Positions 2,515-19,894 of a stretch of 32,000 bases of DNA are shown here, in pieces. Source of the stretch: Erysipelothrix larvae (GTDB lineage Bacteria; Bacillota_I; Bacilli_A; Erysipelotrichales; Erysipelotrichaceae); the NCBI RefSeq assembly GCF_001545095.1, contig NZ_CP013213.1, forward strand, positions 2,040,001 through 2,072,000, read 5' to 3'. A model generated the notes under the pieces. That model was not told the DNA's origin, did not search any database, and saw nothing but the letters and a program-made list of their open reading frames with translations. The position numbers were made by a program, and so were the translations under genes. The first letter of the stretch is position 1; each line of letters begins with the position of its first letter.

Positions 2515-2516
2515 AA

Positions 2517-3525: not shown

Positions 3526-5007
3526 TCATTTATTCTTGATATATTCCGCAGCTTTAACACCTGATTGTCTTCCAAATATAATGATATCTGCTACAGCATT
3601 ACCACCAATACGATTATTTCCATGGATACCGCCTACGAGCTCACCGGCTGCATACAATCCAGGGATTGGTGTGTTCGATTGATCCAATACTTCAGTATTT
3701 GCATTCATTTTTACACCACCCATTGTATGGTGAACACCCGGTGCAATTTTTATTGCGAAATATGGTCCAGTACCTAAATCATGATCCATTCCAGTTTTTC
3801 GTCCAAAGTCCGTATCGTTTTGAGAAGCAACTGATTGATTCCACGATTCCAGTGTGGTTGTAAAGCTTTCTTTATCTACATTCATTTTCTCAGCGAGGCC
3901 TTCAAGTGTGTCGGACTCGAGTACAAATCCTGCTTCAACATAGGTATTGATTGCTTTAACGCGGTCTTTAACACCTTGATCAAATACAAGGTACGCAGCG
4001 TGATCATCCAATCCTATAATGGCTTGAGACACAGTATCTCGTGTCTCTAATTCGTTAATAAAACGTTTGCCATCTTGAGCCACTAAGATTGCACCTTCAC
4101 CTCTCACAGCTTCTGTAACCAGATACGATGTTTTTTGTTCAACTGTAGGATGGATTTGGATTTGTTCCATATCTATTGCATAACCACCTACTTTTTCAAT
4201 CATGACAATGCCATCACCCGTTGATCCTTTTTGATTGGTTGTAACAAATCCTTTAAGTGATGGATTGTATTGTGTAACCATATCTGCATTAGCACCAAAA
4301 CCACCTGTTGCCACGATTACTGCTTTTGCTTTGATGGTCTTTGTTTCTGTGCCATTGAAGGTTACTTTGACGCCAACAATCTCATTCCCTTCCTTTACAA
4401 GTTCTGTTACTTCAGCTTGTAAGAAGATAGGTACTTGTCTGCTTTCAACATTCTCTAAAAGTCCTTTGACTAAATATTGTCCCACTGCTGATCCATCTGC
4501 GGGGCGGTGAGTACGTTTCACACTCATTCCCCCAGTCACTGTTAAGTTAGACAATGTGATTCCCATTGAATCCAACCAATCAATAGCACTTGATGAATTA
4601 TCCACAAAGAACCGAAGCAATTCAGGATCGTTTGTGTTTTTCCCACCTTTGAGCGTTTCCTCATAAAACAAATCGTTTGAATCTTCGATTCCCTCATTCT
4701 TTTGGAACTTGGTTTCAGATGCATTCATCCCCGCCGATGACTTAGAAGTATTTCCACCAACAACTGGCATCTTTTCGAAGATGACAGTATCAGCACCTGC
4801 TTCTTTTGCAGCGATTGCAGCGGACATTCCTCCACCACCTGCACCGATTACAATTACATCATATGCGTCTTTTAACGTATCAAGTTTAGCACCTTGAAAT
4901 GAAGTAGCACTCGATTTCTCGTCACTGTCTTTATCCGTGGTATTTGACTTACCACATCCTGTGATAACGAATAGAATCACAGCCAAAATACACATTAATT
5001 TTTTCAT
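3526..5007 (-). CDS. Lipoprotein FAD-dependent reductase of the fumarate reductase / flavocytochrome c / urocanate reductase flavoprotein family
   Basis: Lipobox VITGC at residues 14-18. FAD Rossmann motif DVIVIGAGGGGMSAA. Conserved catalytic segments are IQIHPT, TEAVRGEGAILV and HHTMGGV, plus C-terminal GLYAAGE..GG.HG.NR.GGN. There is no CxxCH heme motif, and only about 30 aa separate the lipobox Cys from the FAD motif. Confidence 0.85.
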   Translation of the reverse strand: MKKLMCILAVILFVITGCGKSNTTDKDSDEKSSATSFQGAKLDTLKDAYDVIVIGAGGGGMSAAIAAKEAGADTVIFEKMPVVGGNTSKSSAGMNASETKFQKNEGIEDSNDLFYEETLKGGKNTNDPELLRFFVDNSSSAIDWLDSMGITLSNLTVTGGMSVKRTHRPADGSAVGQYLVKGLLENVESRQVPIFLQAEVTELVKEGNEIVGVKVTFNGTETKTIKAKAVIVATGGFGANADMVTQYNPSLKGFVTTNQKGSTGDGIVMIEKVGGYAIDMEQIQIHPTVEQKTSYLVTEAVRGEGAILVAQDGKRFINELETRDTVSQAIIGLDDHAAYLVFDQGVKDRVKAINTYVEAGFVLESDTLEGLAEKMNVDKESFTTTLESWNQSVASQNDTDFGRKTGMDHDLGTGPYFAIKIAPGVHHTMGGVKMNANTEVLDQSNTPIPGLYAAGELVGGIHGNNRIGGNAVADIIIFGRQSGVKAAEYIKNK

Positions 5008-5090
5008 TAGTAAAATTCCCCCCTTTTATAAAATCATACATCAAATACATATCAATACACCTTTTTTCTGGCACTCATTTAATATTTTAT

Positions 5091-5282
5091 TCACAAAATC
5101 AACATATAATCCAAGAATGCGCTGAATTTTGTTAGGAACAGCAAACATTTCACGATATTTAAACAGAATCCTTTTGAAACACCCATCTTACTTCTAGCAT
5201 TTTTCAAAACCGTATCGTATCGTTTAATCTGATGTTTAGAAGAGGACACCTGAAAGTATCCACCAAACTTCATTGGAATCAT
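5091..5282 (-). pseudogene. Possible C-terminal remnant of an IS4/IS5-type DDE transposase
   Basis: KHQIKRYDTVLKNARSKMGVSKGF... loosely follows the RxxVExxFxxLKxxxGxxK C-terminal signature of IS5/IS1182-type transposases. There is no upstream catalytic domain. It abuts the TnpB remnant. Confidence 0.25.
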
Positions 5283-5441
5283 TATTACCCATTACTTCGT
5301 GAACTACTCGCCACTTAGCATACGCTCGAAGTGAGGGCTTCTTGAGAACAAAGCAAACTTAATCGACATTCCTGTCGACCAGCGGTCACTTTTATTTATC
5401 AAGCTATCCCCGATGTCCCATCGGTTTATTGTTTTTCATTC
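5283..5441 (-). ncRNA. Putative right-end / omega-RNA scaffold region of the decayed IS200/IS605-type element
   Basis: It lies immediately 3' of the tnpB stop, which is where omega RNAs are encoded. Several short hairpins are visible (CCGATGGGACATCGG; GTCGACAGGAATGTCGAT; CTTCGAGC...CACGAAG). This is a positional inference only. Confidence 0.3.
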
Positions 5442-6213
5442 TTAGGATTGATGCGAAAGTCTTAATCCTTCATTCAGGATATTGATGCTTGCATTCAAAT
5501 CACGATCGTGTGTGATGTTGCAGTTGGAACATTCCCATTGACGTATCTCCAGTGGTTTCTTTCCATCATTATGTCCACAGTGACAACACAGCTGACTGGA
5601 CGGATACCAGGAATCAATCTTGATTACTTTTTTCCCATACCAACCGGGTTTGTATTTTTAGCTTTGCCACAAATTGTGACCACGACACATCTGCAATACT
5701 CTTTGAAACCCGCTTCGTCTTCATCATTTCTTTAACTTTTAAGGTTTCTATAAAAGAGCACATCATGGTTCTCGATTAGCTCCTTACTCACCTTGTTTAA
5801 GAAATCATTGCGTCGATTTGCGATCTTCTCATGGATTCGTGCGACTTTTAACTTTTGCTTTTGGTAATTCTTAGCTTCACTCAGCGGGACACCCCGTTTC
5901 TTTGCCTCCCTTTTACGTTTTGATAACTTACGTTGTTCTCGTTTCAGTGTTTGTGCTTCTTGGTTCGTGAACCGTGGGTTTAAAAATCCGTGTTCCATCA
6001 AAAGAGTACCGCAAAAGCAATCAATCCAAGATCAATCCCAACCTCAGACCCCGTCTTAGGTAGGTGCTCGATTGTTTCTTCGACTAAGAGTGAGACGTGA
6101 TAGATTCCTGTTGTACTCCTTGATATCGTCGCGGATTTAATAACACCTTTTGTGTGGCGATGCATCTCTATGGGGTTCACTGTCACAGTCTTCTTCTGAA
6201 TATAATTGGACAA
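5442..6213 (-). pseudogene. tnpB: tnpB (IS200/IS605 OrfB, RuvC-like RNA-guided nuclease family); 5'-truncated and frameshifted
   Basis: Three out-of-frame pieces are present. (a) ...GVIKSATISRSTTGIYHVSLLVEE...TGSEVGIDLGL (RuvC-I). (b) NYQKQKLKVARIHEKIANRRNDFLNKVSKELIENHDV. (c) A hand-translated tail, ...SIADVSWSQFVAKLKYKPGWYGKKVIKIDSWYPSSQLCCHCGH...WECSNCNITHDRDLNASINILNEG (Zn finger + RuvC-III). About 100 N-terminal residues are missing. The expected IEDL motif reads FYRNL. Confidence 0.8.
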
Positions 6214-6614
6214 ATGTTTTTGGAGTTTGATGTCCCTAATTTTACATTAATGATGTTTTTAGATGGCACAACGATTCTTAATTTATTCAGTGATAAAACT
6301 ATCCTTGAACAAACTATGGCAGAACCTTTCCCAAATTCAGACTATGAACGCGGAACATATATTTTTCCTGATAACAGTTCTCTCATTATTGGTGAACATA
6401 GTTTGATATTTGATACACCATTCTCTGCAAACATCGTTTCAATACTTAAGCAAAATTATACTGGTATTTACCATTTTAAATGCCAAAAAGAAAAATCATA
6501 ATCACCAGAATAATATAACCAATATAGCATTCCCTCATTATTTGATTTCATTGCCTCAAAACCCTTTGATTAAGCATTTAAACATTCATTTAAAGTCTAA
6601 TTGCTACAGTTTAT

Positions 6615-8981
6615 TCACCGATTCTTATAATAGATATAAAGTGAATAGTTGCTTATTAAGGCTATGAAACCATAGACAATTAGTGATGTTAAGAAGGTCC
6701 CATTAAATATCGAACCATTCCCCATTAGTAGACTATGCAATGATAGTGCTTCAAAAGATTGTATCCCAATAAGTATCATAAGTAATGGAAGGAGTAACAC
6801 AACCCCTGTCATAATAAATACAATAACTATAGACGTAAATTTAGAGGATATCCATAGAATAATGCTGGTTGAAAATATTGCTCCAGAGAGTCTTAAAACC
6901 CAAACTAGAAGCAGGTATTGCCACAGTTTTAGATCCAGTACCCAAGCTGGTATGTTACTTATTTTGAAATCACTTGGTAAGATACTTTGGAACGTACTTT
7001 GCCATGCATCCATGGTATATATCGAAGAGAATGTAAAAAGGTCAACAAGTGATACTATGATAACTGCTCCGAATGCAATGAGATAAGCAAGCTTAATCTT
7101 ACTTTTGAAAAGGGGTAAATTACCCTTTTTCGTGATGGTAGCAATCCCATCTGGGTCTTGTTCATAATCAAATGCAATAATGGGTGATAACACGAGTACT
7201 AGTAAGACAATGAGTAGTAATGCATTTCTAAATTCTCGTGTTTCTGTATTAATAGAAAACAATGCTTGGTATCCATTTGGATAGACGAGTTCTTCTGAAT
7301 TATTCGTTATGTAATGGTCATAGAATTGATTGAAAACCGCCTTATCAACTGAATGTGATAGGTATTCATTTATAAAGTCGTAATATGCTTCTTCTGTAAT
7401 CGTGTGATCTTTGTATGCTTTTGCGTTTAGACTCAATTGTTTATTTAAGTTATCATAAAAATCATATTGCGTATCAATCCACAATATCTTCTCTTCATTG
7501 AGTTCTCCACCATGTTCACGATAAACCTCAACAAGTTTTTCATCAAGTGTCTTGATATTGAGTCCTTGATATATTCCGATATAGATATTTCCCAAATACA
7601 GACCGATTACGAGTACCACAAGCCATCCCTTTTGCATAATGAAACCTTTGTAAGACTCAAATCCAAACCGTTTCAATCTTGGTACAATAGTCGCATGAAG
7701 TTTATCAAATCTTAAATTGATCGAAAGTTGTGGTTTTAATTGCGCATTGCGCAAAACGATAATGCAGATTGTTCCAATAATGCATATAATAATTCCCACT
7801 CCATATATAAAATTAATTTTTGATAAGGAAAAACCCAATGTCTCAATTATTGAATATGATTGGAATAGGTCTCTTGCTTGAATAAGCGCATAAACATTTA
7901 GATACTTGAAAGGAACAAGCATCATGGTATCTTGAATGGTGAAGTATAACCCTGCACTGAATGAAAAAATCAAGAGGAAAGAGAATACCGCTTGTATACG
8001 ATTTGGAATAACTTGATAGAGTAATCCAAACAAAAATGACAACGCCAGCATGCCTACAAATTGCCCAGACACCATCCACATAAACCATCGACCCAAAGAC
8101 ATATTAAAAGAACTATAAGCCAAAGATGGAAAAGATTGGATTGGTGCAAGCCAGTTGATAGAACTAAAAATGAGTTGATTTGTTAGGATAAGCAAGGCAT
8201 AGATGGATATAAAGACCCCCAACAAACTCATTGTCCCTGCAATAAGTTTTGCGATGGTTGTTCTTGTTCTTCCTTTGTTGGTAATCAATAATAGATCATT
8301 CATCTGTGTTGTATGGTCTATTTCAAAAACAGATAAAAAGATAAATATTCCCACAATTATCAGGATTGGCTCAAGATTTGTACCTAAAAGCACATCAACA
8401 CCCTTATGATTCTCAGATGACAAACTCACTCCCCTTAGGTTCTCAAAATATGCACTTTGTTTACTATAGTAGTCCTTTCTTTGTTCAGAGTAGTTTTTCC
8501 AAAAAGGTTGGTTTTCCATGGCTTCAATGACATTGATCGAATCCTCAACAAACCTTGGAAAGTCTTGAATCATTGTATAATAATCAAAGAGTGCTTGATA
8601 GAGCATTAAAGTCTCATTGATATCAAAATCCCTTACAAATGTTTGATAGTCTTGGATAAAACTTTCTGTCATAAATGCATCATTATAGTATTCTTGACGC
8701 ATACTCTCAGCAATATCAGGAAGTGCTATATAAGTTTCATAATCAATATATAGATTAAGCGTCTCTATTTCATGCGCTATTTCCTGTGTAGCGACATCTA
8801 TTTCCAAAGAATCATAGTTGTCCTTTAATTCCGAATATGCCGAAATATTTACCGAGTCTTTCTCTAAACTTGTCTTTGATATATACATCATTCCTACTGA
8901 AAGAAAGAGCGAAATCAATAAGACTCCCCTAATGAAACGCTGTGACCACAGCTTTTTTAGCTCCTCATATATTAGCATCAT
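6615..8981 (-). CDS. Cassette A: giant ABC-2-type permease, internally duplicated (two TM1 / soluble loop / multi-TM halves)
   Basis: Likely start is MMLIYEELKKLW at 8981. The track ORF extends to 9050, but 8981 gives a 17-nt out-of-frame overlap with the ATPase stop. Each half has one TM, then an acidic/aromatic helical loop (about 170 aa in the first half, about 130 aa in the second), then a cluster of about 5-6 TMs. It pairs with the adjacent ABC ATPase. Confidence 0.8.
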   Translation of the reverse strand: MMLIYEELKKLWSQRFIRGVLLISLFLSVGMMYISKTSLEKDSVNISAYSELKDNYDSLEIDVATQEIAHEIETLNLYIDYETYIALPDIAESMRQEYYNDAFMTESFIQDYQTFVRDFDINETLMLYQALFDYYTMIQDFPRFVEDSINVIEAMENQPFWKNYSEQRKDYYSKQSAYFENLRGVSLSSENHKGVDVLLGTNLEPILIIVGIFIFLSVFEIDHTTQMNDLLLITNKGRTRTTIAKLIAGTMSLLGVFISIYALLILTNQLIFSSINWLAPIQSFPSLAYSSFNMSLGRWFMWMVSGQFVGMLALSFLFGLLYQVIPNRIQAVFSFLLIFSFSAGLYFTIQDTMMLVPFKYLNVYALIQARDLFQSYSIIETLGFSLSKINFIYGVGIIICIIGTICIIVLRNAQLKPQLSINLRFDKLHATIVPRLKRFGFESYKGFIMQKGWLVVLVIGLYLGNIYIGIYQGLNIKTLDEKLVEVYREHGGELNEEKILWIDTQYDFYDNLNKQLSLNAKAYKDHTITEEAYYDFINEYLSHSVDKAVFNQFYDHYITNNSEELVYPNGYQALFSINTETREFRNALLLIVLLVLVLSPIIAFDYEQDPDGIATITKKGNLPLFKSKIKLAYLIAFGAVIIVSLVDLFTFSSIYTMDAWQSTFQSILPSDFKISNIPAWVLDLKLWQYLLLVWVLRLSGAIFSTSIILWISSKFTSIVIVFIMTGVVLLLPLLMILIGIQSFEALSLHSLLMGNGSIFNGTFLTSLIVYGFIALISNYSLYIYYKNR

Positions 8982-9831
8982 AATCCACCATATAGTATAG
9001 ATATGCGTCTTCAAAAGTAGGTGTTTTATCCCCTTGTGCTGTTTCATCAATATAGCGAATCAAATACTTGGATTCGTATTTGTATACTCTTGAAACGCGG
9101 TATTGACTTTGATAATTTGGTAACTCATGGACTTCAATAAACTTTTCTACAACCTTGCCTTTCAATGTCTCTAAAAGTTCAAAGCCTGTACCTTCAAACA
9201 CAATATTCCCTTTATTAAGTAAAATAACTTTGTCTGCAATGGACTCAATATCTTGCATGACATGGGTTGCGATTAATACAATACGATTTTCTGCAATTTC
9301 ACTGATATAATTTCTTAACCGAATCCGTTCAAATGGGTCAAGTCCTGCGGTTGGCTCATCAAGAATGATGATCTTCGGATCACCCAATAAGGATTGCGCA
9401 AACATCAAGCGCTGTCTCATGCCACCTGAATAGGTCTTAATCTTCCGGTTAATACTTTCTTCAAGTCCAACTTGCTTAACCAAGGCATTGACTTGTATTG
9501 TCGCTTCTTGTTTTGAAATTCCCTTTAGGTTCGCCATATAATACATGAAAGCGAGTCCCGAGTAATTACCATAACCTTTTTGATTTTGTGGCATAAGTCC
9601 AATTAAAGAACGATACGATTCCTTTATATCCCAAATATGTTTGTCACCATAAGAAATAACACCTGATGTAGCTTTATCAAGTGTCGCAATGAGCCGAATC
9701 AACGTACTCTTACCAGCACCATTGGGCCCAATTAACCCATATATACCTGGCTTCATGGTAAAAGAAACATCTTTTAGTGCCTGAACTTCTTTAAATTTCT
9801 TTGACACATTTGTTAGATTTAGAAGTTCCAT
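8965..9831 (-). CDS. Cassette A: ABC transporter ATP-binding protein (ABC-2/DrrA-NatA-like)
   Basis: Walker A GPNGAGKST, signature YSGGMRQR, Walker B IIILDEPTAGLD, H-loop ATHV, and a C-terminal extension of about 60 aa. Confidence 0.9.
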   Translation of the reverse strand: MELLNLTNVSKKFKEVQALKDVSFTMKPGIYGLIGPNGAGKSTLIRLIATLDKATSGVISYGDKHIWDIKESYRSLIGLMPQNQKGYGNYSGLAFMYYMANLKGISKQEATIQVNALVKQVGLEESINRKIKTYSGGMRQRLMFAQSLLGDPKIIILDEPTAGLDPFERIRLRNYISEIAENRIVLIATHVMQDIESIADKVILLNKGNIVFEGTGFELLETLKGKVVEKFIEVHELPNYQSQYRVSRVYKYESKYLIRYIDETAQGDKTPTFEDAYLYYMVDYDANI

Positions 9832-9832
9832 A

Positions 9833-10963
9833 TTAGTGACTCAATAAGCCCCAAGGCCAACTTGCGATAATTTCTGCTTCACCAAATGTATTGTTTTGGA
9901 TTGGTATTCTTATAAACTCCATATAATCTTGCCCATATCGATACGCATAGTAATAATCATCAGCTACTATTTGCACAAACCCAACGAGTCTGAGGTCTTC
10001 TTTTTCTGTATATGTCGACAAGATATTTCCTTCAATATCATAAAGGAAAATATCTTCAGGCTCATCAGCTAAATTCCCAATCACAAAGTAATCTTTTTGC
10101 ATGATAACACTGCCTGTTGCTGGTTTTATGTACACTGTTTCTTTGATACTGGAATTATAGAGATTCATTGAATTGGTTGCTTCAACGTAGGTTACATATT
10201 TATCATTCTCCTTTTGATAAGGGGATAGATTTTCATCGATGAGTGATAACTGATTGTCTTCTGTATTCAACGAAATAATTGCATTACTACTAGTCTTGTC
10301 TTCATCAGTGAATGTTGTGGCATTCAAAAATACTTCATTACCGGAGGCCGATATAAGTCGAAGACCTGTTCCGCCTTCTATTTCCTCAAGACTCCAGTCA
10401 CTCATATCAATACGGTTGACTTTAGTGCCGCCATATGTGTAATAAACATAACCCCTATGATAAATCATAGTGAATGATGATTCATCAGGTTTACGTTCAG
10501 ATAGTACCGCAACTTGCCTCCTGTTGTTACCATCCAAATCCATTTGCATTAGTACTTCTGATATGATTCCAGCATCATTAACACTATCACTAACGTAATA
10601 TAAATAGCCATTATAATAGTTTAGTTGATAGTAATCGGTTTCTGAAAATGAAGTACATGATTCTGGTGACTGAAACGAACATTTCGCATCGCCACTAGCG
10701 TCAACAATTGAAAATTGATTAGTCTTTTTATCAACATAACCCAACATGAAAGTATTATTGATTTGCACAAAATCCGTGTTTAAAATTTCAAAGTAAATAC
10801 CCTCTTCACTTTCGGTGGCAGATCTCATCGCTGCAAAAGAACCACTTAATTGGTTTATATTATAATCATAACCCCAAATTGTGGGGTCAATTGGCTTTTC
10901 TTCTGTTTTACTACACCCAGTAAGCAATAAAAATGCAACGAGCACACTTGTTTTTATTTTCAT
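9833..10963 (-). CDS. Cassette A: lipoprotein with DUF5050-like beta-propeller repeats
   Basis: Probable start is MKIKTSVLVAFLLLTGCSK (ATG 10963, RBS AAGGAGAAG; the track ORF starts 12 codons earlier). Lipobox LLTGC. Repeated aromatic blades are present: YYNGYLYYVSD, HRGYVYYTYG, DIFLYDI, DYYYAYRYG. Confidence 0.8.
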   Translation of the reverse strand: MKIKTSVLVAFLLLTGCSKTEEKPIDPTIWGYDYNINQLSGSFAAMRSATESEEGIYFEILNTDFVQINNTFMLGYVDKKTNQFSIVDASGDAKCSFQSPESCTSFSETDYYQLNYYNGYLYYVSDSVNDAGIISEVLMQMDLDGNNRRQVAVLSERKPDESSFTMIYHRGYVYYTYGGTKVNRIDMSDWSLEEIEGGTGLRLISASGNEVFLNATTFTDEDKTSSNAIISLNTEDNQLSLIDENLSPYQKENDKYVTYVEATNSMNLYNSSIKETVYIKPATGSVIMQKDYFVIGNLADEPEDIFLYDIEGNILSTYTEKEDLRLVGFVQIVADDYYYAYRYGQDYMEFIRIPIQNNTFGEAEIIASWPWGLLSH

Positions 10964-11038
10964 AGAGCACTTCTCCTTATCAAAGTATCTAGTTAACAAG
11001 GGACTATAGCTGTTTTTGTTAGTTAGTTTACAGATTAA

Positions 11039-11395
11039 TTAATAACTTTTATCCAGGACTCGCCTGATATTTCCATAAGAAAATTCACCTTTAACACGTG
11101 CGATTTTATAACCAGAAGTGAATGTTATCATCGTATACTCAAAACCGTCCCCTGCACTATTGTCTGATGCTGTACGCTGTAACATAGTTGAGCCCTTATA
11201 TGCCCATGTGGTTTGAATTACTATCAATGCAGTACTTAGACTATTTGACTTTATGGATGCAGTTGCAGTAGTGTCGTTTACTTTGTTAATCAAATATTCG
11301 TATGTATCAGTTGCAGCACTTACACTTTGTGAAAGAAATAGAAAAACTGTTAACGAAAGAATTGTTCCAAGTAATTTCTTTTTAGTTTTGCTCAT
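11039..11395 (-). CDS. Cassette A: small Sec-secreted beta-rich protein of unknown family (about 91 aa mature)
   Basis: MSKTKKKLLGTILSLTVFLFLSQSVSA|ATDTYEY..., with a predicted AXA cleavage site. The mature part is rich in S/T/G/Y and contains no Cys. It is the first gene of the cassette. The track starts one codon earlier, at a TTG. Confidence 0.7.
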   Translation of the reverse strand: MSKTKKKLLGTILSLTVFLFLSQSVSAATDTYEYLINKVNDTTATASIKSNSLSTALIVIQTTWAYKGSTMLQRTASDNSAGDGFEYTMITFTSGYKIARVKGEFSYGNIRRVLDKSY

Positions 11396-11606
11396 CAAAA
11401 TTGTACCCTTATGCTATGGTTCCTAAAACTATTATACTTAATCTTCCAAAAAATATGTAGTACTATCACGCTATTTTTTAAGTGGTTTGTATTTATTTTA
11501 CTTAATTTCAACAGATTTCACATATCAAGGTGAATAATTAGTAATTTTGCTCTATATTAACGGTATAATAATGAACTAAATATACTTCAATAAATAATAT
11601 ATGTTT

Positions 11607-11700
11607 GAATATTAAACTTTATATGGGGTTTTGACAGCCAACACAATTACTATGGGAGAGACAGTTTCTCTCTAAACTCCCTCTTTAAAGTGTTTGGTTT
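11607..11700 (+). mobile_element. Solo, degenerate copy of the left end of the ISL3-like element found at 17494
   Basis: GAATATTAAACTTTATATGGGGTTTTGAC... at 11607 versus GGATATTAAACTTTACTTGGGGTTTTCAC... at 17494. Similarity continues for about 95 bp (roughly 70% by eye) as far as ...CTTTAAAG.GTTTGG. I found no matching right end nearby. Confidence 0.55.
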
Positions 11701-11993
11701 ATCTTATTTTCAAAGGCATAAATGAAAGAAAAAATGCCGTAGCGAGCTGAGATTCAATCAGCATTTACAAATAAAGTGTGGCACTATTTGCGAAAAAAAT
11801 TTTTAATATTACGATTATCTTTGAAGTGACAATCAACAGTTCAATGGATACATTGGTAAACATTTAAAAGCGTTGAATAAAGCATATTCACACATATTCT
11901 GCTACCTATAAATCCTTACTTTCTAAGAATTCAATTTCTCCATAAATCCATTATTCTCGTTTCAATCAATATTGAACAAAATATTTTAAACTG

Positions 11994-12836
11994 TCAGCCT
12001 AACAAATCAATGTACACATCATCAAGGGTTGTCTGGACTTGTCTCTCATGTAAAAGTTTTGAAATAAAGCGAATCTTTAAACCGTTTGATGTAGCCATTG
12101 CGCTCACAAACTTCGCAGAATCATCCTCATTTTTGATTGACTCAAAGGATTCATACGATTCAAAAACATTTGTATCATTAATCAGTGCTTCTTGATTCTT
12201 TATCGACAGAATTTGTCCATCTTTCATCACAATAATCTGGTCTGCAATCATTTCAACATCCGAGATAACATGCGTTGCAAGAATAACAATGCGATCTGTC
12301 GCTACTTCCGCGATAACCTTTCTTAAATTTAACCGTTGAACGGGGTCAAGGCCTGCTGTCGGCTCATCCAATAATAATATCTTGGGATCATTAAGCAGTG
12401 CTTGGGCAATGAGGACCCGCTGCTTCATACCACCTGATAATTGATCCAAAGATTTATGTTTAATCGTTTCTAAATCAGTGCGTTTCATGATGGTGTTTAC
12501 GTTCTCTGAAATCACGTTTCGCTTAATCCCTTTCATTGTACTCATATAAATCAAAAAAGACTCCACTGTGAGATTAGGGATTAGCGATTGTTGTTGTGGC
12601 ATATAGCCAATCATCTTTCGATAGTCATCACCCAATTGATGAATGCTTTTTCCATGATATAAAACGTCCCCTTCATAGCCCAAGGTTGTGCTTAAAATAT
12701 TAATAAGGGTCGATTTCCCAGCACCATTGTGTCCCAATAAAGCATACACACCCTCATCTAACGATAAACTAATCTTATTCAGCGCTATGGTTTCTCCATA
12801 GCGTTTTGTTATGTTTTTAAGCTCAAGAATACTCAT
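11994..12836 (-). CDS. Cassette B: ABC transporter ATP-binding protein, paralog of 8965-9831
   Basis: Walker A GHNGAGKST, signature LSGGMKQR, Walker B ILLLDEPTAGLD, H-loop ATHV. It aligns along its full length with the cassette A ATPase (roughly 40-45% identity by eye). Its start overlaps the permease stop by 4 nt. Confidence 0.9.
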   Translation of the reverse strand: MSILELKNITKRYGETIALNKISLSLDEGVYALLGHNGAGKSTLINILSTTLGYEGDVLYHGKSIHQLGDDYRKMIGYMPQQQSLIPNLTVESFLIYMSTMKGIKRNVISENVNTIMKRTDLETIKHKSLDQLSGGMKQRVLIAQALLNDPKILLLDEPTAGLDPVQRLNLRKVIAEVATDRIVILATHVISDVEMIADQIIVMKDGQILSIKNQEALINDTNVFESYESFESIKNEDDSAKFVSAMATSNGLKIRFISKLLHERQVQTTLDDVYIDLLG

Positions 12837-14905
12837 GATATTAACCCTCTTTTCACATTCATACCAATACCACCAATGACCAAACTCATATAACCTACCG
12901 CAACCACAGGATGTTCTAATATAGCCGTTGTAAGCACCATAAGTGGTGAGTATTCAGGGAAGAGTGTAAACAACCCCATCACCACAATAACAACAAATAT
13001 CATGCCAAATAATGCCTTTAATCCGCTTGTTTGTCGGGCAAGTCGATAACTACTCAAAACAATCAATCCATACACCAAGGCCCTAATTAACAGTGTACAC
13101 ACCATGTACACTGCAAGTGAAACATCCAAGGACAGGTCAGTGTCAAGAATTAGACTCATTGGATAGTTCACAGTAAACAAATTATAGTATTTTAAGATCT
13201 TCGCAATATATATTCCATAAACACCAATACAGAGCACCCCACCAATCCCCAACAACAACTGGAGGTCGATCTTCTTCTTTTGTTTTCGACCTAAAAGAGT
13301 ACTATCAAAAAGTGCATCAATCTTTGATGTCTTCGTTGGATTCACAAACATAAACACAAGACTCATCAGTGCTAAAGAAAGGGTTATAAAATGAATCTGC
13401 ATGCTAAACAAGGACTCTCTACCAAAAAGCTGTTCGTACCCTTGTATATTTGAATAGTAGGCCTCCCCATTTATTAGTACTTGTTCGATTTCATCGCGTA
13501 TCATGACAAGGGTACTGAGGTTGTTTGCTTTCTCGATGAGTTCACTATTATTGGTTTCATCACAATCCATTGTATTATCAATACAGGCATTGAGTTTGTC
13601 GCGCGCTTCTTGAGCGTCAAGGATGCGCACGTTCAAAGCTTCCAAAACATCCGCATCAACAATCCCCAGATACTCAGCACGCATAGCATCCACGTTTGCT
13701 TGTTCTGCATCTTCTAAGATGGTATAGCTCATATAGCGATACCCATTGTATCCAATTAAGATTACACAGATTAAAAATGCTTTATAAAGGATTCCCATTT
13801 GGAAGAATTCTTGAAGGGCAAGTGATTTAAACCTAAAGGAAAGTTTAAGGTCAAACTGCTTAAAGCCAATTCGATTGATATTTCGATACATTCCCCAAGA
13901 TAAAATGCTAACACAAACAGTAAGAACACACAGTGCAACAATTTGCAGTGTAGCAAGTTGAAACCCTAGTCCCAAAACAATCGAAATATTAAAGCTTGGC
14001 ATTGATCCAATAAGATAAGCATACACATTAATATATTTGAGAACACTGTAACCCGATGTAATTGAGATAAAGCTATGCATTAAGTACTGAACTAATGTCA
14101 TCAAAATAAATACAAACAATGCCAGTGCATCATTTCTAAAAATGTGAATAAATATGATTAGAATGGAACCAATGAAAAGCATACTCAGAATACCAAGACT
14201 TGAAATCATAATGAGATAAGACAAACAATTTAGATAATAAGGGAACCGGTTGAATCCTGAAATAAATTGAATCGGAACATATAATGACAACCCCATTAAC
14301 TTAAGTGTACCCACTGTAATAAGAAGCATACCCACTCTAAACAAAACAACACTAACTAATAATGCCAGTATCTTAGAAATATATAGGTGCTTCAACGATG
14401 TATGCGTACTCTCAAAAAGACGCAAAATCTTTATTTGAACATCCTGATAGAAAAGCGCTTGTACACACATAATTACAAAAATAAATGACAGGATTGAAAA
14501 AATAGGAGAGCGCAATACAACCGATGGAACATAGGTATTTTCCACATTCAATTCGAGTGTGTTCAATGTTTGATAATATTGAATTTCCTTCTTAAACCTC
14601 ACTAAATTATCTTTTGAATTAAAAAGCGATGACTGTATTTTCTTCTGATTGTTTTCAATGATTTCGTTATTATATTGCGTAAAGTTTTGAATCGTCTCAA
14701 TTTGATTTTTAAGATATGAACTACTGAGTGCTTCAGTGGAAAGATTCCCTTGAAGATACTGATTCCGTTGTGTTATATAACTTTGGTTTTCATCACTATA
14801 AAATGTACCCACCAAAAAAACCAGGAGTACCAGCATCAGTATCATGACCCCTGGAAGAATACCACGATAAGATTTAAGACGCTTTAGCTCTTGATTTAAC
14901 ATCAT
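12833..14905 (-). CDS. Cassette B: giant internally duplicated ABC-2-type permease, paralog of 6615-8981
   Basis: 690 aa. The plan is MMLNQELKRLKSYRG + TM, a loop of about 95 aa, a TM cluster, then a second TM, a helical acidic loop of about 120 aa and a second TM cluster. The N-terminal motif (ELK+L) and overall plan match cassette A. Confidence 0.8.
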   Translation of the reverse strand: MMLNQELKRLKSYRGILPGVMILMLVLLVFLVGTFYSDENQSYITQRNQYLQGNLSTEALSSSYLKNQIETIQNFTQYNNEIIENNQKKIQSSLFNSKDNLVRFKKEIQYYQTLNTLELNVENTYVPSVVLRSPIFSILSFIFVIMCVQALFYQDVQIKILRLFESTHTSLKHLYISKILALLVSVVLFRVGMLLITVGTLKLMGLSLYVPIQFISGFNRFPYYLNCLSYLIMISSLGILSMLFIGSILIIFIHIFRNDALALFVFILMTLVQYLMHSFISITSGYSVLKYINVYAYLIGSMPSFNISIVLGLGFQLATLQIVALCVLTVCVSILSWGMYRNINRIGFKQFDLKLSFRFKSLALQEFFQMGILYKAFLICVILIGYNGYRYMSYTILEDAEQANVDAMRAEYLGIVDADVLEALNVRILDAQEARDKLNACIDNTMDCDETNNSELIEKANNLSTLVMIRDEIEQVLINGEAYYSNIQGYEQLFGRESLFSMQIHFITLSLALMSLVFMFVNPTKTSKIDALFDSTLLGRKQKKKIDLQLLLGIGGVLCIGVYGIYIAKILKYYNLFTVNYPMSLILDTDLSLDVSLAVYMVCTLLIRALVYGLIVLSSYRLARQTSGLKALFGMIFVVIVVMGLFTLFPEYSPLMVLTTAILEHPVVAVGYMSLVIGGIGMNVKRGLIS

Positions 14906-14910
14906 GAATC

Positions 14911-16035
14911 CTAATTATCAAGTGCGTTGAGATAAGAAGAGGTTGCGATCTTAGTCCACTCACCTGTTTTATAGTTTACTGTATAATATCCCAAGCCATC
15001 ATTCTTGTCATTTGCGACAACAACCAGCGTGTCTTTAAACACACCGATGATTCCAGACACTTCAACCTTACTGCCGTTTAGGTCCAAAGAATTCGAAGGG
15101 ACAAATGACTCACTTGCCTCCACTTCATAGACAAGTGTTCCATCATAATCATACACTTGAAATTTCAACGGAGATTCTGCACTTGTAGCATAAATATACT
15201 GATCATCAATATATTCCATCACTGTATGTTCAAAAGTGGTTCTAACATCACCCGCTTCATTCACAACATGTGCTAATATTTTATCGGCTTGGATTTCATA
15301 ATAAATAAAATTGGAATCATAAGAACTTGCTAAAAAATAGTCTGGAGCCGATATTACATTTTCCAATGAATAATCATCAAAGGAAAAAGCATACAATGTA
15401 CTAACATTCGTTGATTGATTATACATATTAAGATATAAACCATCTTGTGAAGGAACATAACGAAGGAAACGTTGTCCTTCAGGTTCGATAATTTGTGTTT
15501 TCTCCTTCGAATTTAGGTTTACCACAAATACTTCCTGGGTAAAAGTATCAACATAAAATAGGTGACCATAGGTAATAAACATCTTATCAGGGACCGTGTC
15601 AAAAGTATAAACAACTTCTTTATTTAACCCTTCAGAATCAAGGCGATTAAGCATTAAGCCATTTTCCCCTTCAATCGTTCCATAGTATGAAATATAATAG
15701 AGCGACCCACCATAGCATTGAAAGTATTCCCCATCCATGATATCAAAATACTTCTCATACTCTAGCTCATAATCCTGAGAAACACTGACGACTTCATCAT
15801 CGATATAGTTCAAATCCGCTAATTTTAAAGACTCTTGCATCGCATCATCGTACACATAAAGTGTTCCAGAATCAATGTAATAAATTGCGTCATCTGTTGC
15901 TGAAATGCTAATTTTTGAAATATTAGTATTCATCCCAGTAAACATCTGATTTGCAGGAATGCTCTCGTCAATTTTAGTGGATGTTTGCGTACATCCAGCC
16001 AACAATAAAAGTCCAATCAACAAACCTTTCTTCAT
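14911..16035 (-). CDS. Cassette B: lipoprotein with DUF5050-like beta-propeller repeats, paralog of 9833-10963
   Basis: Lipobox LLLAGC. Blade motifs DAIYYIDSGTLYVYD, CYGGSLYYISYYG, YGHLFYVD, NFIYYEI, QYIYATS. The core YxxxYxG(Y/S)LYY(V/I)S ... L(D/M)xxG is shared with the cassette A lipoprotein. Confidence 0.8.
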   Translation of the reverse strand: MKKGLLIGLLLLAGCTQTSTKIDESIPANQMFTGMNTNISKISISATDDAIYYIDSGTLYVYDDAMQESLKLADLNYIDDEVVSVSQDYELEYEKYFDIMDGEYFQCYGGSLYYISYYGTIEGENGLMLNRLDSEGLNKEVVYTFDTVPDKMFITYGHLFYVDTFTQEVFVVNLNSKEKTQIIEPEGQRFLRYVPSQDGLYLNMYNQSTNVSTLYAFSFDDYSLENVISAPDYFLASSYDSNFIYYEIQADKILAHVVNEAGDVRTTFEHTVMEYIDDQYIYATSAESPLKFQVYDYDGTLVYEVEASESFVPSNSLDLNGSKVEVSGIIGVFKDTLVVVANDKNDGLGYYTVNYKTGEWTKIATSSYLNALDN

Positions 16036-16249
16036 ATATTCTTCTTCTCCCTCTTCCGTGGCTTACCAAGACTAATAAATAATATTGTGTTTTAATTTTC
16101 TTTCATCAGTCTTAATAACTTTTACATTCAAGACTAGTAAATTTGATTTTACCTGTAAAAAATACGGCAACTAATCAAGCTTAATACGCTTTTGTGCACA
16201 TCACTAGTGGAGCGGATTCCCTAGTGATATTTTTTACAACAAAAAGAAT

Positions 16250-16654
16250 TTATTGACCGGGTGCTGTAACAGTTCCTGAACCGAGCGTGCTCAAAGTTTT
16301 ACCCTGATAAGTCACAGTTCCTCTTGAAGAAGCACTAGAAATAGCGTAATTCTTAAATTGACAATAAACTCTAACATATGCTCCACCCATACCACTGGAA
16401 CTGCCTGACGAATCGAATGATTGATACCCTATAGTCTCAGTAATATACGTCGTTATTTGACCGTTATACTTTGTATCATTAGCAATTGACCCATCAACTG
16501 ATTTTCTATCACTGACCATTGAAACTCTTACGGTCATATAAGAATCAGTCTTTGACAATGCTGATATGTTTGTTGAAAACAAAATAAGTGTAAGTCCAAG
16601 CAATAAAATCGCAGTAAATATTTTCCTTCCATTATTTTTTGTAGCTCTAATCAT
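16250..16654 (-). CDS. Cassette B: small Sec-secreted beta-rich protein of unknown family (about 102 aa mature)
   Basis: MIRATKNNGRKIFTAILLLGLTLILFSTNISA|LSKTDSY... is a signal peptide. The mature part is S/T/G/Y-rich with a single Cys. It shares with the cassette A protein an N-terminal TD(T/S)Y, a Ser/Gly-rich stretch before an aromatic strand, and a C-terminal G.(F/V).Y.G segment. Confidence 0.7.
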   Translation of the reverse strand: MIRATKNNGRKIFTAILLLGLTLILFSTNISALSKTDSYMTVRVSMVSDRKSVDGSIANDTKYNGQITTYITETIGYQSFDSSGSSSGMGGAYVRVYCQFKNYAISSASSRGTVTYQGKTLSTLGSGTVTAPGQ

Positions 16655-16806
16655 AGTTAGTCCCCTTGTTTATATCTTCCGCTCTAATTATATTTTATCA
16701 TGACAACCGAAAATGTATACCCTTTCATTTATTGTTATTTTTATTTTTATTGCAATCACAAATCTTGTGGGATGTTACATTTTTAACATAGGTTTTTCTA
16801 CTTGCA

Positions 16807-17417
16807 TCAATTAACTTTAGAAAAAGTATTCATCATCAGGGTAACCATTCTTCTTACTGCCTCAGCTGGGTCTTCGATGACAATCAATTTCTTGTTTTCT
16901 TTACGATATCCATGTGGTGCTTGGGGTGATGCATAATTCCCCTCCAAAAATAAGCGTGTTATTCTTGCTTCAGAACATTTCTTTATCTTCTTTAATTCAT
17001 ACCCTCTGAATGCTAATTTGATTTTATATTCGTTCACACCAGAATCGGTACGATAAACACATGTAGATAAAACTCACAATTGTAAGCTTTCAGATACTTA
17101 ATCCAGAAACTATTGTATTCATTCTCACGTCCAATTCTCTCACTATCAGTTGCCATAACAAGATTCACATTACCTTTCTTTATATCTGATAGAAGTCTTT
17201 GAAAATTAGGGCGGTCCATAGTCGTTCCACTTTCACCATCATCCACATAAAATCTTACATTGTGAACACCTCCTATTCCACTATTTGTGATCACATTTTG
17301 AAGTACATCAAATTGATGTCTTACACTATAACCATGTTTGGCTTGTTCATCAGCGCTGACACGAACATATACTCCTATTTTGCGCTCTCTTAATTCTTGA
17401 ATTCTCGAAAAAAAATG
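16807..17417 (-). pseudogene. Large serine recombinase (resolvase/invertase N-domain); lacks a start codon, is frameshifted and is 3'-truncated
   Basis: The open frame from 17417 reads ...RIQELRERKIGVYVRVSADEQAKHGYSVRHQFDVLQNVITNSGIGGVHNVRFYVDDGESGTTMDRPNFQRLLSDIKKGNVNLVMATDSERIGR. It contains the catalytic YxRVSxxxQ box. There is no ATG/GTG/TTG upstream of that box. The frame breaks near 17037, and the second piece (...PHGYRKENKKLIVIEDPAEAVRRM...) stops after 76 aa. Confidence 0.75.
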
Positions 17418-17485
17418 TTAGACCAGTTATCTATTTCAAGCACAAAAAACAGTGAAGGTTGAGAGTTTATTCCCTAAATAATAAT

Positions 17486-17493
17486 ATAAAATC
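17486..17493. repeat. Target-site duplication (ATAAAATC), left copy, of the ISL3-like element
   Basis: The identical 8-mer directly abuts both termini (GG... and ...CC) of the element. 8 bp is the canonical ISL3 duplication length. Confidence 0.65.
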
Positions 17494-17778
17494 GGATATT
17501 AAACTTTACTTGGGGTTTTCACTCGCAACACTATTTCTTGGGGTGAGGTAATCTTGCTCTAGCCTCTGTCTTTAAAGAAGTTTGGGGATTTCTGTTGTAA
17601 ACTGATTATCTTAGACCAGCAGAATAAAAAATCACTTTACTTTATGCACAATTAAGTGCTGTATTAAAGTGATTTTTTTTGTATTATTAGTTTAACGAGG
17701 TTAATAAAATGGTAGAAACCCCAAGTTTCCAGACCTAAGTTTCTACCAATCCAATACCTCCTATAAAGGAGTAAGAAT

Positions 17779-18249
17779 ATGATAACAGTTTTCTCAAACA
17801 CATTCAATAATAAACAGTTTTCTCAAAAGGAATATTACAAATTTCTCAATTCAATTAATCCAAAAACAATACCTTGTCCGTGCTGTTCAAAAACAGATAC
17901 ACTGATTCGTTATGGATACTATCCGAAAACCATAATTACTGGGCGATTAACCATTGTCGTAGAAATCGCACGTTTCTTTTGTAATCAATGTAAGAGAACT
18001 CATGCAATAATACCAAGTAACTTACTTCCCTATTTTCAACTGTCTGTACCCACAATTGAAATAATATTAACCCATGAACTTGATAGCACGCTTTTAACTG
18101 ATATTGATGAATCAACATATATTCGGATAAAAATACGTTTTAACGATTATGAATCGGTGAGACATTTAAGTTATTTGGAACGATTGAATTACTTCATATT
18201 ATCCACAAAACGGAATATCTATCATTCCGCCATTACTTCACCAACATGA
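17779..18249 (+). CDS. IS-associated Zn-ribbon protein (resembles the DUF6431 proteins found with ISL3-like transposases)
   Basis: 156 aa with two CxxC pairs (CPCCSK ... CNQCKR) and a THAIIPSNLLPYFQ motif. It lies immediately upstream of the transposase inside the IS. RBS AAAGGAG. Confidence 0.6.
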   Translation: MITVFSNTFNNKQFSQKEYYKFLNSINPKTIPCPCCSKTDTLIRYGYYPKTIITGRLTIVVEIARFFCNQCKRTHAIIPSNLLPYFQLSVPTIEIILTHELDSTLLTDIDESTYIRIKIRFNDYESVRHLSYLERLNYFILSTKRNIYHSAITSPT

Positions 18250-18382
18250 GAAAAATAGTTTTAACTCCTCAGATTGAATATAATGAAGATGGTTATTTAA
18301 ATAACAGACAATCATTTTTATATTTAGGAGCAAGATACATAATGAAACCTTATCAAAATAGTCAAAGAGAGGCAGGGTTTCT

Positions 18383-19858: not shown

Positions 19859-19894
19859 GAAATGACTCATTATTGATATACTATAACAAAAAGA

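What the first reader, a model, noticed from the sequence alone, without database searches (positions are those of the whole stretch)
11039..11395. Cassette A leader gene: orphan 91-aa (mature) Sec-secreted beta-rich protein
The product has a classical signal peptide with an AXA site (SQSVSA|ATDTYEY). The mature part has no Cys, is rich in T/S/G/Y, and shows the alternating pattern typical of a small beta-sandwich (TALIVIQTTWAYKGS, FEYTMITFTSGYKIARVKGEFSYGN). I could not match it to any family from memory. Being the first gene, only 39 nt upstream of the lipoprotein gene, fits a structural or effector gene followed by handling/immunity genes. Because it has a Sec leader rather than a double-glycine leader, the ABC transporter is not needed for its export.
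Basis: partly seen in the sequence, partly recalled or inferred. Interest (0 to 1): 0.7.

Follow-up and report, generated by a model that had tools for sequence, protein, structure and literature searches.

The report
Rare secreted beta-sandwich protein leading ABC cassette
This is a real gene for a small exported all-beta protein of a very rare Erysipelothrix family that travels with a lipoprotein and an ABC transporter on mobile DNA; it may be a new kind of protein bacteriocin with its own protection genes, but its function is untested.

Summary
Window 11039-11395 (minus strand) encodes a 118-aa protein of Erysipelothrix larvae (AOC36_09285) with a Sec-type signal peptide ending ...SVSA|ATD. 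The mature part is 91 aa (10.1 kDa), has no Cys and has pI 8.9. It is nearly an orphan. An exhaustive search of 1.84 billion representative proteins found five distant relatives (26-34% identity). All are 106-118 aa with aligned signal-peptide cleavage sites. With only six sequences, AlphaFold gives a confident seven-strand beta-sandwich (pLDDT >90 over the mature part), and it has no specific structural neighbour in the PDB. Wherever downstream DNA exists, the next gene is a homologous lipoprotein, followed where the contig extends by an ABCA-like ATPase and a duplicated 12-TM permease. The same three-gene unit also occurs without the small gene. Cassettes lie beside recombinase or IS remnants, and one small gene lies on a mobilisable plasmid-like contig. 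No link to lactococcin 972 was detected, and UniRef's DUF5626 label was not reproduced. My best reading (about 0.4) is a secreted antagonistic protein with a lipoprotein/ABC self-protection module. The main rival is a non-toxic extracellular partner of the transporter. No experiment or fold match supports either.

The parts
11039..11395 (-). Small secreted protein gene (118 aa; E. larvae AOC36_09285 / WP_067633610.1); alternative TTG start at 11398
   Evidence: ORF and sequence; exact match in the NCBI collection; family of 5 distant homologues
11315..11395 (-). Signal peptide, residues 1-27 (MSKTKKKLLGTILSLTVFLFLSQSVSA)
   Evidence: n/h/c regions by inspection; cleavage column conserved in all homologues; modelled as a low-confidence helix 3-21, separate from the domain
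11042..11314 (-). Mature domain, 91 aa, seven-strand Ig-like beta-sandwich
   Evidence: AlphaFold2 with alignment A1: pLDDT above 90, strands 32-38, 43-50, 57-67, 70-80, 85-91, 97-107, 110-117; only generic Ig/FN3-like Foldseek matches
9833..10963 (-). Cassette A lipoprotein (376 aa, lipobox LLTGC; UniRef name 'DUF5050 domain-containing')
   Evidence: ORF; 100% match to E. larvae AOC36_09280; homologues directly downstream of small-protein homologues; no Pfam hit here
8965..9831 (-). Cassette A ABC ATPase (288 aa), DrrA/ABCA-like
   Evidence: PF00005 E 2.7e-28; best NCBIfam hits DrrA and GldA, both below cut-off; closest solved NBDs are ABCA4/3/1/7
6615..8981 (-). Cassette A permease (788 aa from ATG 8981), internally duplicated 2 x (TM1, large loop, TM2-6)
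   Evidence: Hydropathy; the two halves are homologous, hhalign probability 95.7%; no Pfam, NCBIfam or PDB sequence match
16250..16654 (-). Cassette B leader gene: 134-aa secreted protein, possible very remote analogue of the target
   Evidence: No BLASTP similarity. It is the best non-family hit of the A1 HMM among all six-frame segments (E 0.0014). A collinear hhalign alignment reaches only 10% probability. An identical copy is annotated on an E. larvae plasmid
11994..16035 (-). Cassette B partner genes: lipoprotein 14911-16035, permease 12833-14905, ATPase 11994-12836
   Evidence: ORFs; ATPases A and B are 44% identical; the permeases are weakly related and the lipoproteins barely so
11593..11690 (.). 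98-nt repeat in the B-A intergenic region, 73% identical to 17480-17577, which is mostly the terminal region of the ISL3-type insertion
16807..17294 (-). Resolvase (serine recombinase) gene fragments just upstream of cassette B
   Evidence: PF00239 E 2.3e-10; same arrangement in L001

Best explanation
The gene encodes a Sec-exported, released, roughly 10-kDa seven-strand Ig-like beta-sandwich protein. It belongs to a tiny, fast-diverging family so far seen in Erysipelothrix (E. larvae, Erysipelothrix sp. UBA3377) and in unassigned metagenome contigs. It is the optional leader gene of a mobile four-gene cassette: small protein, then a beta-propeller-type lipoprotein, then an ABCA-like ATPase, then a fused 12-TM ABC-2 permease. 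Most likely it acts outside the cell as an antagonistic (bacteriocin-like) protein against related bacteria. In that reading the lipoprotein would bind it and the ABC exporter would clear it from the producer's envelope, as in the LanI/LanFEG and lactococcin 972 logic. Shown here: the gene, the signal peptide features, the fold model, the family, the conserved synteny, the transporter type and the mobile context. Inferred: secretion and release, toxicity, and the protective role of the three partner genes.
For: The gene is real and conserved. Five distant homologues have aligned signal peptides, mature lengths of 89-93 aa, pI 8.1-9.2 and no Cys. The fold model is confident even from six sequences. 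There is no lipobox, LPXTG motif or second TM segment, so the protein should be released. Synteny is conserved: a homologous lipoprotein follows directly in L005, L006/L007 and L010, and the ATPase and permease follow where the contig extends. No terminator hairpin separates the small gene from the lipoprotein gene (z = -0.18). The transporter is an exporter/extruder type, not a peptidase-containing bacteriocin exporter. The three-gene unit exists without the leader gene in L008 and in the second cassette of L009, as expected for orphan immunity. Divergence increases toward the outside of the cell: ATPase 61-75% identity, permease 28-42%, lipoprotein 31-45%, small protein 28-32%. Between two near-identical contigs, 6 of 7 mismatches fall in the small gene; 5 are nonsynonymous and 4 lie in one loop (Fisher p = 0.047). 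The context is mobile: resolvase and IS remnants in the window, a relaxase-bearing plasmid-like contig L002, an identical copy of the cassette B leader on an E. larvae plasmid, and a sharp conserved junction about 100 nt upstream of divergent cassettes. Two divergent cassettes sit in tandem, each with its own leader gene. The precedent is lactococcin 972, a Sec-exported, Cys-free, plasmid-borne beta-sandwich bacteriocin (PMC7476776).
Against: There is no sequence or structural similarity to any known bacteriocin or toxin. The family conserves only structural-looking residues (turn Gly, core Tyr, a GDG loop) and shows no hydrophobic or amphipathic segment. The partner genes match no curated immunity family; the lantibiotic-protection ATPase model scores 139 bits against a cut-off of 310. 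No regulator or quorum-sensing genes are adjacent. The sample is very small, with 4 distinct cassettes carrying the leader gene and 2 lacking it. The selection signal is marginal and could reflect a single recombination event. Loss of the leader gene in some cassettes fits equally well with a dispensable accessory protein.
Confidence: 0.4

Rival explanations
1. The small protein is a non-toxic extracellular partner of the transporter. It docks on the lipoprotein or on the large external loops of the ABCA-like permease, and acts as an acceptor, adaptor or specificity factor for whatever the pump extrudes, such as a lipid or an antimicrobial compound. B. subtilis YxeA, encoded with the YxdLM peptide-resistance transporter, is a comparable case (my own knowledge, untested here).
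For: Gene linkage is tight and co-transcription is likely. Its divergence is similar to that of the other extracytoplasmic parts, which is compatible with co-evolving contacts. The ATPase is closest to ABCA lipid exporters, which hand cargo to extracellular acceptors. An Ig-like binding fold with no catalytic or membrane-active features fits this role.
Against: The three-gene unit occurs intact without the small gene, and its lipoproteins are the same length, so the small protein is not an obligatory subunit. The first-gene position and the mobile, patchy, tandem-paralogue distribution suit a toxin/immunity pair better. No interaction was modelled.
Confidence: 0.3
2. It is an independent secreted or wall-associated protein, for example an adhesin-like, biofilm-matrix or phage-receptor-masking factor. 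It merely shares a mobile island and a promoter with an unrelated resistance transporter.
For: Ig-like small secreted domains are common in surface biology; weak Foldseek neighbours include WxL-interacting protein, CsgH and adhesin repeat domains. The mobile-island context fits. The loop-focused variation could reflect antigenic or phage pressure.
Against: Adjacency to the same lipoprotein family is kept across cassettes that have diverged to about 30% identity. The sharp upstream junction places the small gene inside the variable cassette rather than in the backbone. The protein has no wall-anchoring or wall-binding motif.
Confidence: 0.15
3. It is a divergent member of Pfam DUF5626, as the UniRef name says, and shares that family's (unknown) role.
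For: UniRef100_A0A0X8H1A4 is named 'DUF5626 domain-containing protein'. A genuine DUF5626 protein (E 2.5e-13) lies 2.5 kb upstream of the small gene in L010.
Against: PF18540.6 gives no hit at E <= 10 to any of six family members, to two further family members, or to the mature domain. hhalign of the family profile against the genuine DUF5626 protein gives 0.1% probability. phmmer with --max finds nothing. DUF5626 is about 120 residues against 91 here. This reading would also not explain function.
Confidence: 0.1

Closest known systems
Lactococcin 972 (Lcn972) and its operon, L. lactis plasmid pBL1
   Same: It is a ribosomal, unmodified, Cys-free protein exported with a Sec signal peptide. It is folded as a small beta-sandwich and is borne on a mobile element. 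Its structural gene comes first and is followed by membrane/ABC genes thought to give self-protection rather than export (PMC7476776 and PMC8538875; the operon layout is from my own knowledge).
   Different: No sequence relationship was detected: no Pfam or NCBIfam hit, and hhalign probability 0.2% against the verified 2LGN sequence. The protein here is 91 aa with seven strands, against 66 aa with two three-stranded sheets. 2LGN is not among the 50 best Foldseek matches. The partner genes differ: there is an extra lipoprotein, a 12-TM duplicated permease instead of the TIGR01654-type membrane protein, and the ATPases are below the TIGR03608 cut-off. Activity is untested.
Lantibiotic self-protection modules LanI (lipoprotein) plus LanFEG (ABC-2 transporter)
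   Same: Both combine a surface lipoprotein with an ABC-2-type extruder whose ATPase is a separate gene, encoded next to the gene for a secreted antimicrobial. The proposed logic is the same: bind at the surface and expel from the membrane (family knowledge).
   Different: The ATPases score only 139-143 bits against the lantibiotic-protection model, whose cut-off is 309.75. The lipoprotein is a 376-aa protein that UniRef names DUF5050, a beta-propeller family according to bioRxiv 10.1101/2024.01.30.577966, and is not LanI-like. The permease is one fused 12-TM chain. The putative antimicrobial is a folded 10-kDa protein, not a lanthipeptide.
ABCA-type / DrrA-NatA-type (ABC-2, type V) exporters
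   Same: The ATPase's closest solved relatives are the nucleotide-binding domains of ABCA4, ABCA3, ABCA1 and ABCA7 (E down to 1e-56). The permease has the ABCA-like layout of two homologous halves, each with a large external loop after TM1.
   Different: The permease matches no Pfam ABC2_membrane model and no PDB sequence. The substrate is unknown. The association with a lipoprotein and a secreted Ig-like protein is not a described feature of these families.
YxeA (DUF1093), encoded with the B. subtilis yxdJKLM peptide-resistance ABC operon
   Same: It is a small, signal-peptide-bearing, beta-rich protein of unknown role, co-operonic with an ABC transporter linked to antimicrobial peptides (my own knowledge, not tested here).
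   Different: There is no DUF1093 hit. YxeA is the last gene, not the first. The partner transporter is of the BceAB/FtsX type rather than ABC-2, and there is no lipoprotein.

Membership tests
Lactococcin 972 family (Pfam Lactococcin_972 / TIGR01653) | Sequence match to the family profile | tested here: not met
   No Pfam or NCBIfam hit at E <= 1 or at E <= 10 for six members. hhalign of the A1 profile against Lcn972 (sequence verified as 2LGN) gives probability 0.2%.
Lactococcin 972 family (Pfam Lactococcin_972 / TIGR01653) | Sec signal peptide, unmodified, Cys-free mature protein | tested here: met
   Signal peptide with an A-x-A site conserved across the family; 0 Cys in all mature forms. 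The absence of modification is only inferred from the absence of modification genes.
Lactococcin 972 family (Pfam Lactococcin_972 / TIGR01653) | 66-aa beta-sandwich of two three-stranded antiparallel sheets (Turner 2013, cited in PMC7476776) | tested here: inconclusive
Lactococcin 972 family (Pfam Lactococcin_972 / TIGR01653) | Operon partners: TIGR01654 bacteriocin-associated membrane protein and TIGR03608 ATPase | tested here: not met
   The permeases have no NCBIfam hit. ATPase B scores 119.8 bits on TIGR03608 (cut-off 254.85), ranking below many generic ABC models.
Lactococcin 972 family (Pfam Lactococcin_972 / TIGR01653) | Lipid II binding / septum-inhibiting antimicrobial activity | not testable with these tools
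   Needs purified protein and sensitive strains.
Pfam DUF5626 (PF18540) | Sequence match to the family profile at the gathering score (26.7 bits) | tested here: not met
   No hit at E <= 10 for the whole protein, the mature domain, five homologues, or the L007 and L010 copies. A genuine member (L010:2-400, 50.9 bits) shows no relation by hhalign (0.1%) or phmmer. The UniRef name says otherwise.
Sec-dependent bacteriocins (functional class) | Ribosomal protein with a Sec signal peptide and no dedicated peptidase-ABC exporter | tested here: met
   Signal peptide. The ABC system has a separate ATPase and no peptidase domain.
Sec-dependent bacteriocins (functional class) | Antimicrobial activity against related bacteria and producer immunity encoded nearby | not testable with these tools
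   Support is contextual only: conserved adjacency to the lipoprotein/ABC unit, orphan units without the leader gene, and a mobile context.
LanFEG/LanI-type self-protection (partner genes) | ATPase matches the lantibiotic-protection subfamily TIGR03740; lipoprotein is LanI-like | tested here: not met
   139.1 and 142.9 bits against a cut-off of 309.75. The lipoproteins have no family hit.
ABC-2 / ABCA-like (type V) exporter (partner genes) | DrrA/ABCA-like nucleotide-binding domain plus 6-TM units with a large loop after TM1 | tested here: met
   Top NCBIfam hits are DrrA and GldA (below cut-off). The best PDB relatives are ABCA4/3/1/7 NBDs. Hydropathy shows 2 x 6 TM with 110-170-aa loops and the halves are homologous. 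However, there is no Pfam ABC2_membrane hit.

The most novel reading that the evidence does not exclude
The family is a previously unrecognised class of Sec-exported, folded Ig-like protein bacteriocins. Each variant would be paired with a cognate three-part self-protection machine: a beta-propeller lipoprotein, an ABCA-like ATPase and a fused 12-TM permease. Whole toxin-plus-protection cassettes would be exchanged between Erysipelothrix mobile elements at a conserved junction (CACYTATTTTACACAAYC). A still more unusual alternative, also not excluded, is that the small protein is an extracellular acceptor for cargo extruded by a bacterial ABCA-like pump.
Probability: 0.3. Interest if true: 0.65.

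Novelty: new variant of a known kind. Interest (0 to 1): 0.45.

Why it matters
If the small protein is an antagonistic factor, it would define a new structural family of unmodified protein bacteriocins. It would also define a new three-component immunity architecture, in a genus that includes animal and zoonotic pathogens. Three of the four cassette proteins currently match no curated family, so even a negative result on toxicity would begin to assign a role to an uncharacterised ABCA-like bacterial transporter with a dedicated lipoprotein. The practical value is modest until activity is shown. The family is extremely rare, with six clusters among about 15 billion proteins.

Tried and rejected
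Family and profile searches
- Pfam, NCBIfam and PADLOC scans found no family for the small proteins, lipoproteins or permeases.
- The word-indexed homology search with the single protein found only the 99% identical copy.
- The profile search added nothing beyond what the exhaustive phmmer search had already found.
- P0007 and P0008 from that search are low-complexity repeat proteins and were set aside.
- P0009 is a truncated fusion remnant of a P0006-like gene.

Structure
- Single-sequence AlphaFold failed (pLDDT 44).
- Foldseek against PDB and BFVD gave only generic Ig/FN3-like matches.
- PDB sequence searches with the small-protein, lipoprotein and permease profiles found nothing.

Public collections
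- PLSDB plasmids, INPHARED phages and IMG/VR contain nothing related to the small protein, lipoprotein, permease, cassette B or the L010 DUF5626 protein.
- The small-protein alignment was too divergent for degenerate-pattern locus scans.

Specific hypotheses tested
- Lactococcin 972 homology was tested and rejected at the sequence level.
- DUF5626 membership was tested and not reproduced.

Other checks
- Rfam found no RNA family in window 5000-18000.
- The promoter and terminator scans were uninformative.
- There are no extra small ORFs of note in the 600-nt region upstream of the gene.
- GC content does not set the island apart from its flanks.
- Literature searches for DUF5050, DUF5626 and Erysipelothrix larvae gave nothing on this cassette.

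Full report
**1. The observation**

Window 11039-11395 holds a 118-codon ORF on the minus strand, with ATG at 11395 and its stop codon at 11039-11041. An in-frame TTG at 11398 sits 7 nt after an AAGGG Shine-Dalgarno, so the protein may be one residue longer.

The N-terminus has a signal-peptide layout: MSKTKKK, then a 14-residue hydrophobic core, then SQSVSA|A. The mature part is 91 aa and 10.08 kDa, with pI 8.9, no Cys and 45% S/T/G/N/Y. It has no lipobox, LPXTG motif or further hydrophobic segment.

The exact protein is Erysipelothrix larvae AOC36_09285 (WP_067633610.1), annotated 'hypothetical protein'. The lipoprotein next door is AOC36_09280, on the 2.495-Mb chromosome.

The ATG at 10963 has a GGAG Shine-Dalgarno and matches the 376-aa NCBI product, which gives a 75-nt gap. 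This spacer folds no better than shuffled sequence (z = -0.18), so co-transcription is likely.

**2. A real but very rare family**

- Pfam and NCBIfam give nothing.
- A word-indexed search of 5.8 billion clusters found only a 99% identical copy from a second strain (P0001).
- An exhaustive phmmer scan of 1.84 billion representatives found five genuine distant relatives, P0002-P0006. They are 26-34% identical and 106-118 aa long.
- Two larger hits from that scan, P0007 and P0008, are low-complexity repeat proteins and were discarded.
- In alignment A1 the signal-peptide cleavage sites fall in one column. Mature lengths are 89-93 aa. All members are mildly basic (pI 8.1-9.2) and lack Cys.
- The invariant positions are Y32, S50, G68, G84 (in a GDG loop), Y96 (SGY) and Y107. 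These look structural rather than catalytic.

**3. Fold**

AlphaFold2 on the single sequence failed (pLDDT 44). With only the six-sequence alignment it gave pLDDT above 90 across the mature domain. The model has seven strands, at residues 32-38, 43-50, 57-67, 70-80, 85-91, 97-107 and 110-117.

The fold is therefore an ordinary small beta-sandwich with no informative neighbour.

**4. Neighbourhood**

Cassette A reads, on the minus strand:
- the small gene;
- the lipoprotein (9833-10963);
- an ABC ATPase (8965-9831);
- a permease (6615-8981).

Cassette B lies immediately upstream and has a different order:
- a 134-aa secreted protein (16250-16654);
- a lipoprotein (14911-16035);
- a permease (12833-14905);
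- an ATPase (11994-12836).

*The transporter.* The ATPases are DrrA/GldA-like but score below every curated cut-off. Their closest solved relatives are the nucleotide-binding domains of ABCA4, ABCA3, ABCA1 and ABCA7. The permease has about 12 TM segments, arranged as two halves that each carry a 110-170-aa loop after the first TM. The halves are homologous to each other (hhalign probability 95.7%). The permease matches no Pfam model and no PDB sequence. The system is thus an ABC-2/ABCA-like extruder.

*The lipoproteins.* UniRef calls them DUF5050, a family described as a beta-propeller in bioRxiv 10.1101/2024.01.30.577966. The current Pfam model did not hit them.

**5. Relatives and their neighbours**

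| Locus | Small gene | What follows or surrounds it |
|---|---|---|
| L005 | present | lipoprotein 36% identical to the window's |
| L006 | present | lipoprotein 48% identical over the 58 aligned residues (contig end) |
| L007 (Erysipelothrix sp. UBA3377) | present | full four-gene cassette |
| L010 | present | full four-gene cassette |
| L008 | absent | three-gene unit after a 575-nt gap |
| L009, second cassette | absent | three-gene unit after a 106-nt gap |
| L002/L003 | present | contig ends just after the gene |
| L004 | present | contig ends just after the gene |

The A1 HMM finds no remnant of the small gene in L008 or L009. L002 carries a relaxase, a replication-like gene and, at its other end, the C-terminal half of a related permease. 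This is what a small mobilisable plasmid carrying the cassette would look like.

Identity to the window's cassette A falls from the inside of the cell to the outside:

| Component | Identity to window cassette A |
|---|---|
| ATPase | 61-75% |
| Permease | 28-42% |
| Lipoprotein | 31-45% |
| Small protein | 28-32% |

Between the near-identical contigs L006 and L007, 6 of 7 mismatches in 786 nt lie in the 342-nt small gene. Five are nonsynonymous, and four fall in codons 53-57, the loop between strands 2 and 3. The clustering is marginal (Fisher p = 0.047).

**6. Mobility**

- Resolvase fragments precede cassette B.
- IS21, ISL3 and other transposase genes lie beyond it.
- The second strain (L001, 99.6% identical over window 6113-17493) lacks window 17494-20018, which is an ISL3-type insertion.
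- The B-A intergenic region contains a 98-nt repeat similar to that insertion's terminal region.
- The cassette B leader protein has an identical copy annotated on an E. larvae plasmid.
- In L005, L006/L007 and L010, a motif CACYTATTTTACACAAYC sits 78-115 nt before the small gene, preceded by a hairpin and a T-run.
- L005 and L007 are 96% identical for 81 nt up to that motif. They then diverge abruptly into cassettes whose small proteins are only about 30% identical.

This last point places the small gene inside the exchangeable cassette. The motif is absent from the window.

**7. Is the cassette B leader related?**

BLASTP shows nothing. However, it is the best non-family hit of the A1 HMM among all six-frame segments of all loci (E 0.0014; the next hit is at 1.8). 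hhalign gives a collinear full-length alignment at only 10% probability. That alignment places ...SGMGGAYVRVYCQFKNYAIS...GTVTYQG... against ...AGDGFEYTMITFTSGYKIAR...GEFSYGN....

**8. Known families**

*Lactococcin 972.* There is no profile hit. I verified the Lcn972 sequence against PDB 2LGN, and hhalign against the family profile gave 0.2% probability. Lcn972 is a 66-aa sandwich of two three-stranded sheets that binds lipid II (PMC7476776; PMC8538875). The present protein is 91 aa with seven strands, and its partner genes differ. It may work like Lcn972, but it is not a member.

*DUF5626.* UniRef's name could not be reproduced.

*LanI/LanFEG.* The logic is similar but there is no family membership.

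**9. Mechanism**

I commit, at about 0.4, to the following reading. The small protein is a secreted antagonistic protein. The lipoprotein and the ABCA-like pump provide producer self-protection, and the three-gene units without a leader gene are orphan protection cassettes.

The steps that are shown:
- export signals;
- the fold model;
- conserved linkage to the lipoprotein/ABC unit;
- transporter class;
- optional presence of the leader gene;
- mobile context.

Toxicity, the target and the protective role are inferred.

The main rival (about 0.3) is a non-toxic extracellular partner or acceptor of the pump. A hitch-hiking surface protein (about 0.15) is the remaining alternative. A divergent DUF5626 membership (about 0.1) overlaps with these readings rather than excluding them, and would not itself explain function.

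**10. Verdict**

The gene is real, the description was accurate, and the protein belongs to a near-orphan family in a conserved but uncharacterised mobile cassette. The bacteriocin idea is reasonable but unproven, and the lactococcin 972 lead fails membership tests. Interest is moderate.

Noticed in passing
L007 8033-8136; L005 1-83; L006 123-226; L010 2803-2820: A conserved block of about 100 nt lies 78-115 nt upstream of the small genes. It contains a palindrome AAGGT(A/T)CCTT, a hairpin with a T-run, and the motif CACYTATTTTACACAAYC. L005 and L007 are 96% identical up to the motif and unrelated after it, which looks like a recombination junction or attachment site where different cassettes are exchanged. 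It could also be a shared operator. The motif is absent from the window.
   Followed up: partly
window 17494-20018: An ISL3-type transposase gene (18383-19858) and a DUF6431 gene (17779-18249) form a 2.5-kb insertion that is absent from the otherwise 99.6% identical contig L001. There is an 8-bp overlap at the junction, consistent with a target-site duplication.
   Followed up: partly
window 11593-11690 and 17480-17577: A 98-nt direct repeat (73% identity). One copy lies in the intergenic region between cassettes B and A. The other overlaps the terminal region of the ISL3-type insertion, so the first copy may be a solo IS-end remnant.
   Followed up: partly
window 16110-16250: A strong hairpin (AUAUCACUAGGGAAUCCGCUCCACUAGUGAUGU) lies just after the cassette B leader gene, within a 214-nt gap before its lipoprotein gene. 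The fold has z = -3.4, and none of 200 shuffles folds as well. There is no clear U-run. It may be an attenuator or an mRNA stabiliser. Cassette A has no equivalent.
   Followed up: partly
window 1461-3179: Three tandem minus-strand ORFs of 175, 185 and 220 aa. The last has a Peptidase_M73 (camelysin/TasA-like) hit, which suggests a TasA-type secreted fibre or protease cluster near the island.
   Followed up: no
L007 7939-7995 and 14295-14351; L007 7401-7933 vs 4421-4956: A 57-nt direct repeat (95% identity) brackets the whole cassette in Erysipelothrix sp. UBA3377. A recombinase C-terminal fragment just upstream is an 88% duplicate of the 3' end of a surface-protein/recombinase fusion ORF. The locus appears mosaic and repeatedly rearranged.
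   Followed up: no
L010 2-400, 820-1639, 1643-2182: Upstream of the L010 cassette lie a genuine DUF5626 protein, a secreted protein with a weak DUF7689 hit, and a 179-aa lipoprotein with an internal repeat. This may be another secreted-protein/lipoprotein pair.
   Followed up: no
L013 2273-2641: P0009 shares its first 35 or so residues with P0006 (signal-peptide end and first strand) and then switches to an unrelated Lys/Glu-rich sequence. It is apparently a disrupted or fused remnant of a family member.
   Followed up: partly
window 6113-17493 vs L001: Among the 42 substitutions between the two strains, the cassette A ATPase has 4 synonymous and 0 nonsynonymous changes. The two permeases have 9 nonsynonymous and 4 synonymous changes. 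The only change in the small gene is nonsynonymous (E86A).
   Followed up: yes
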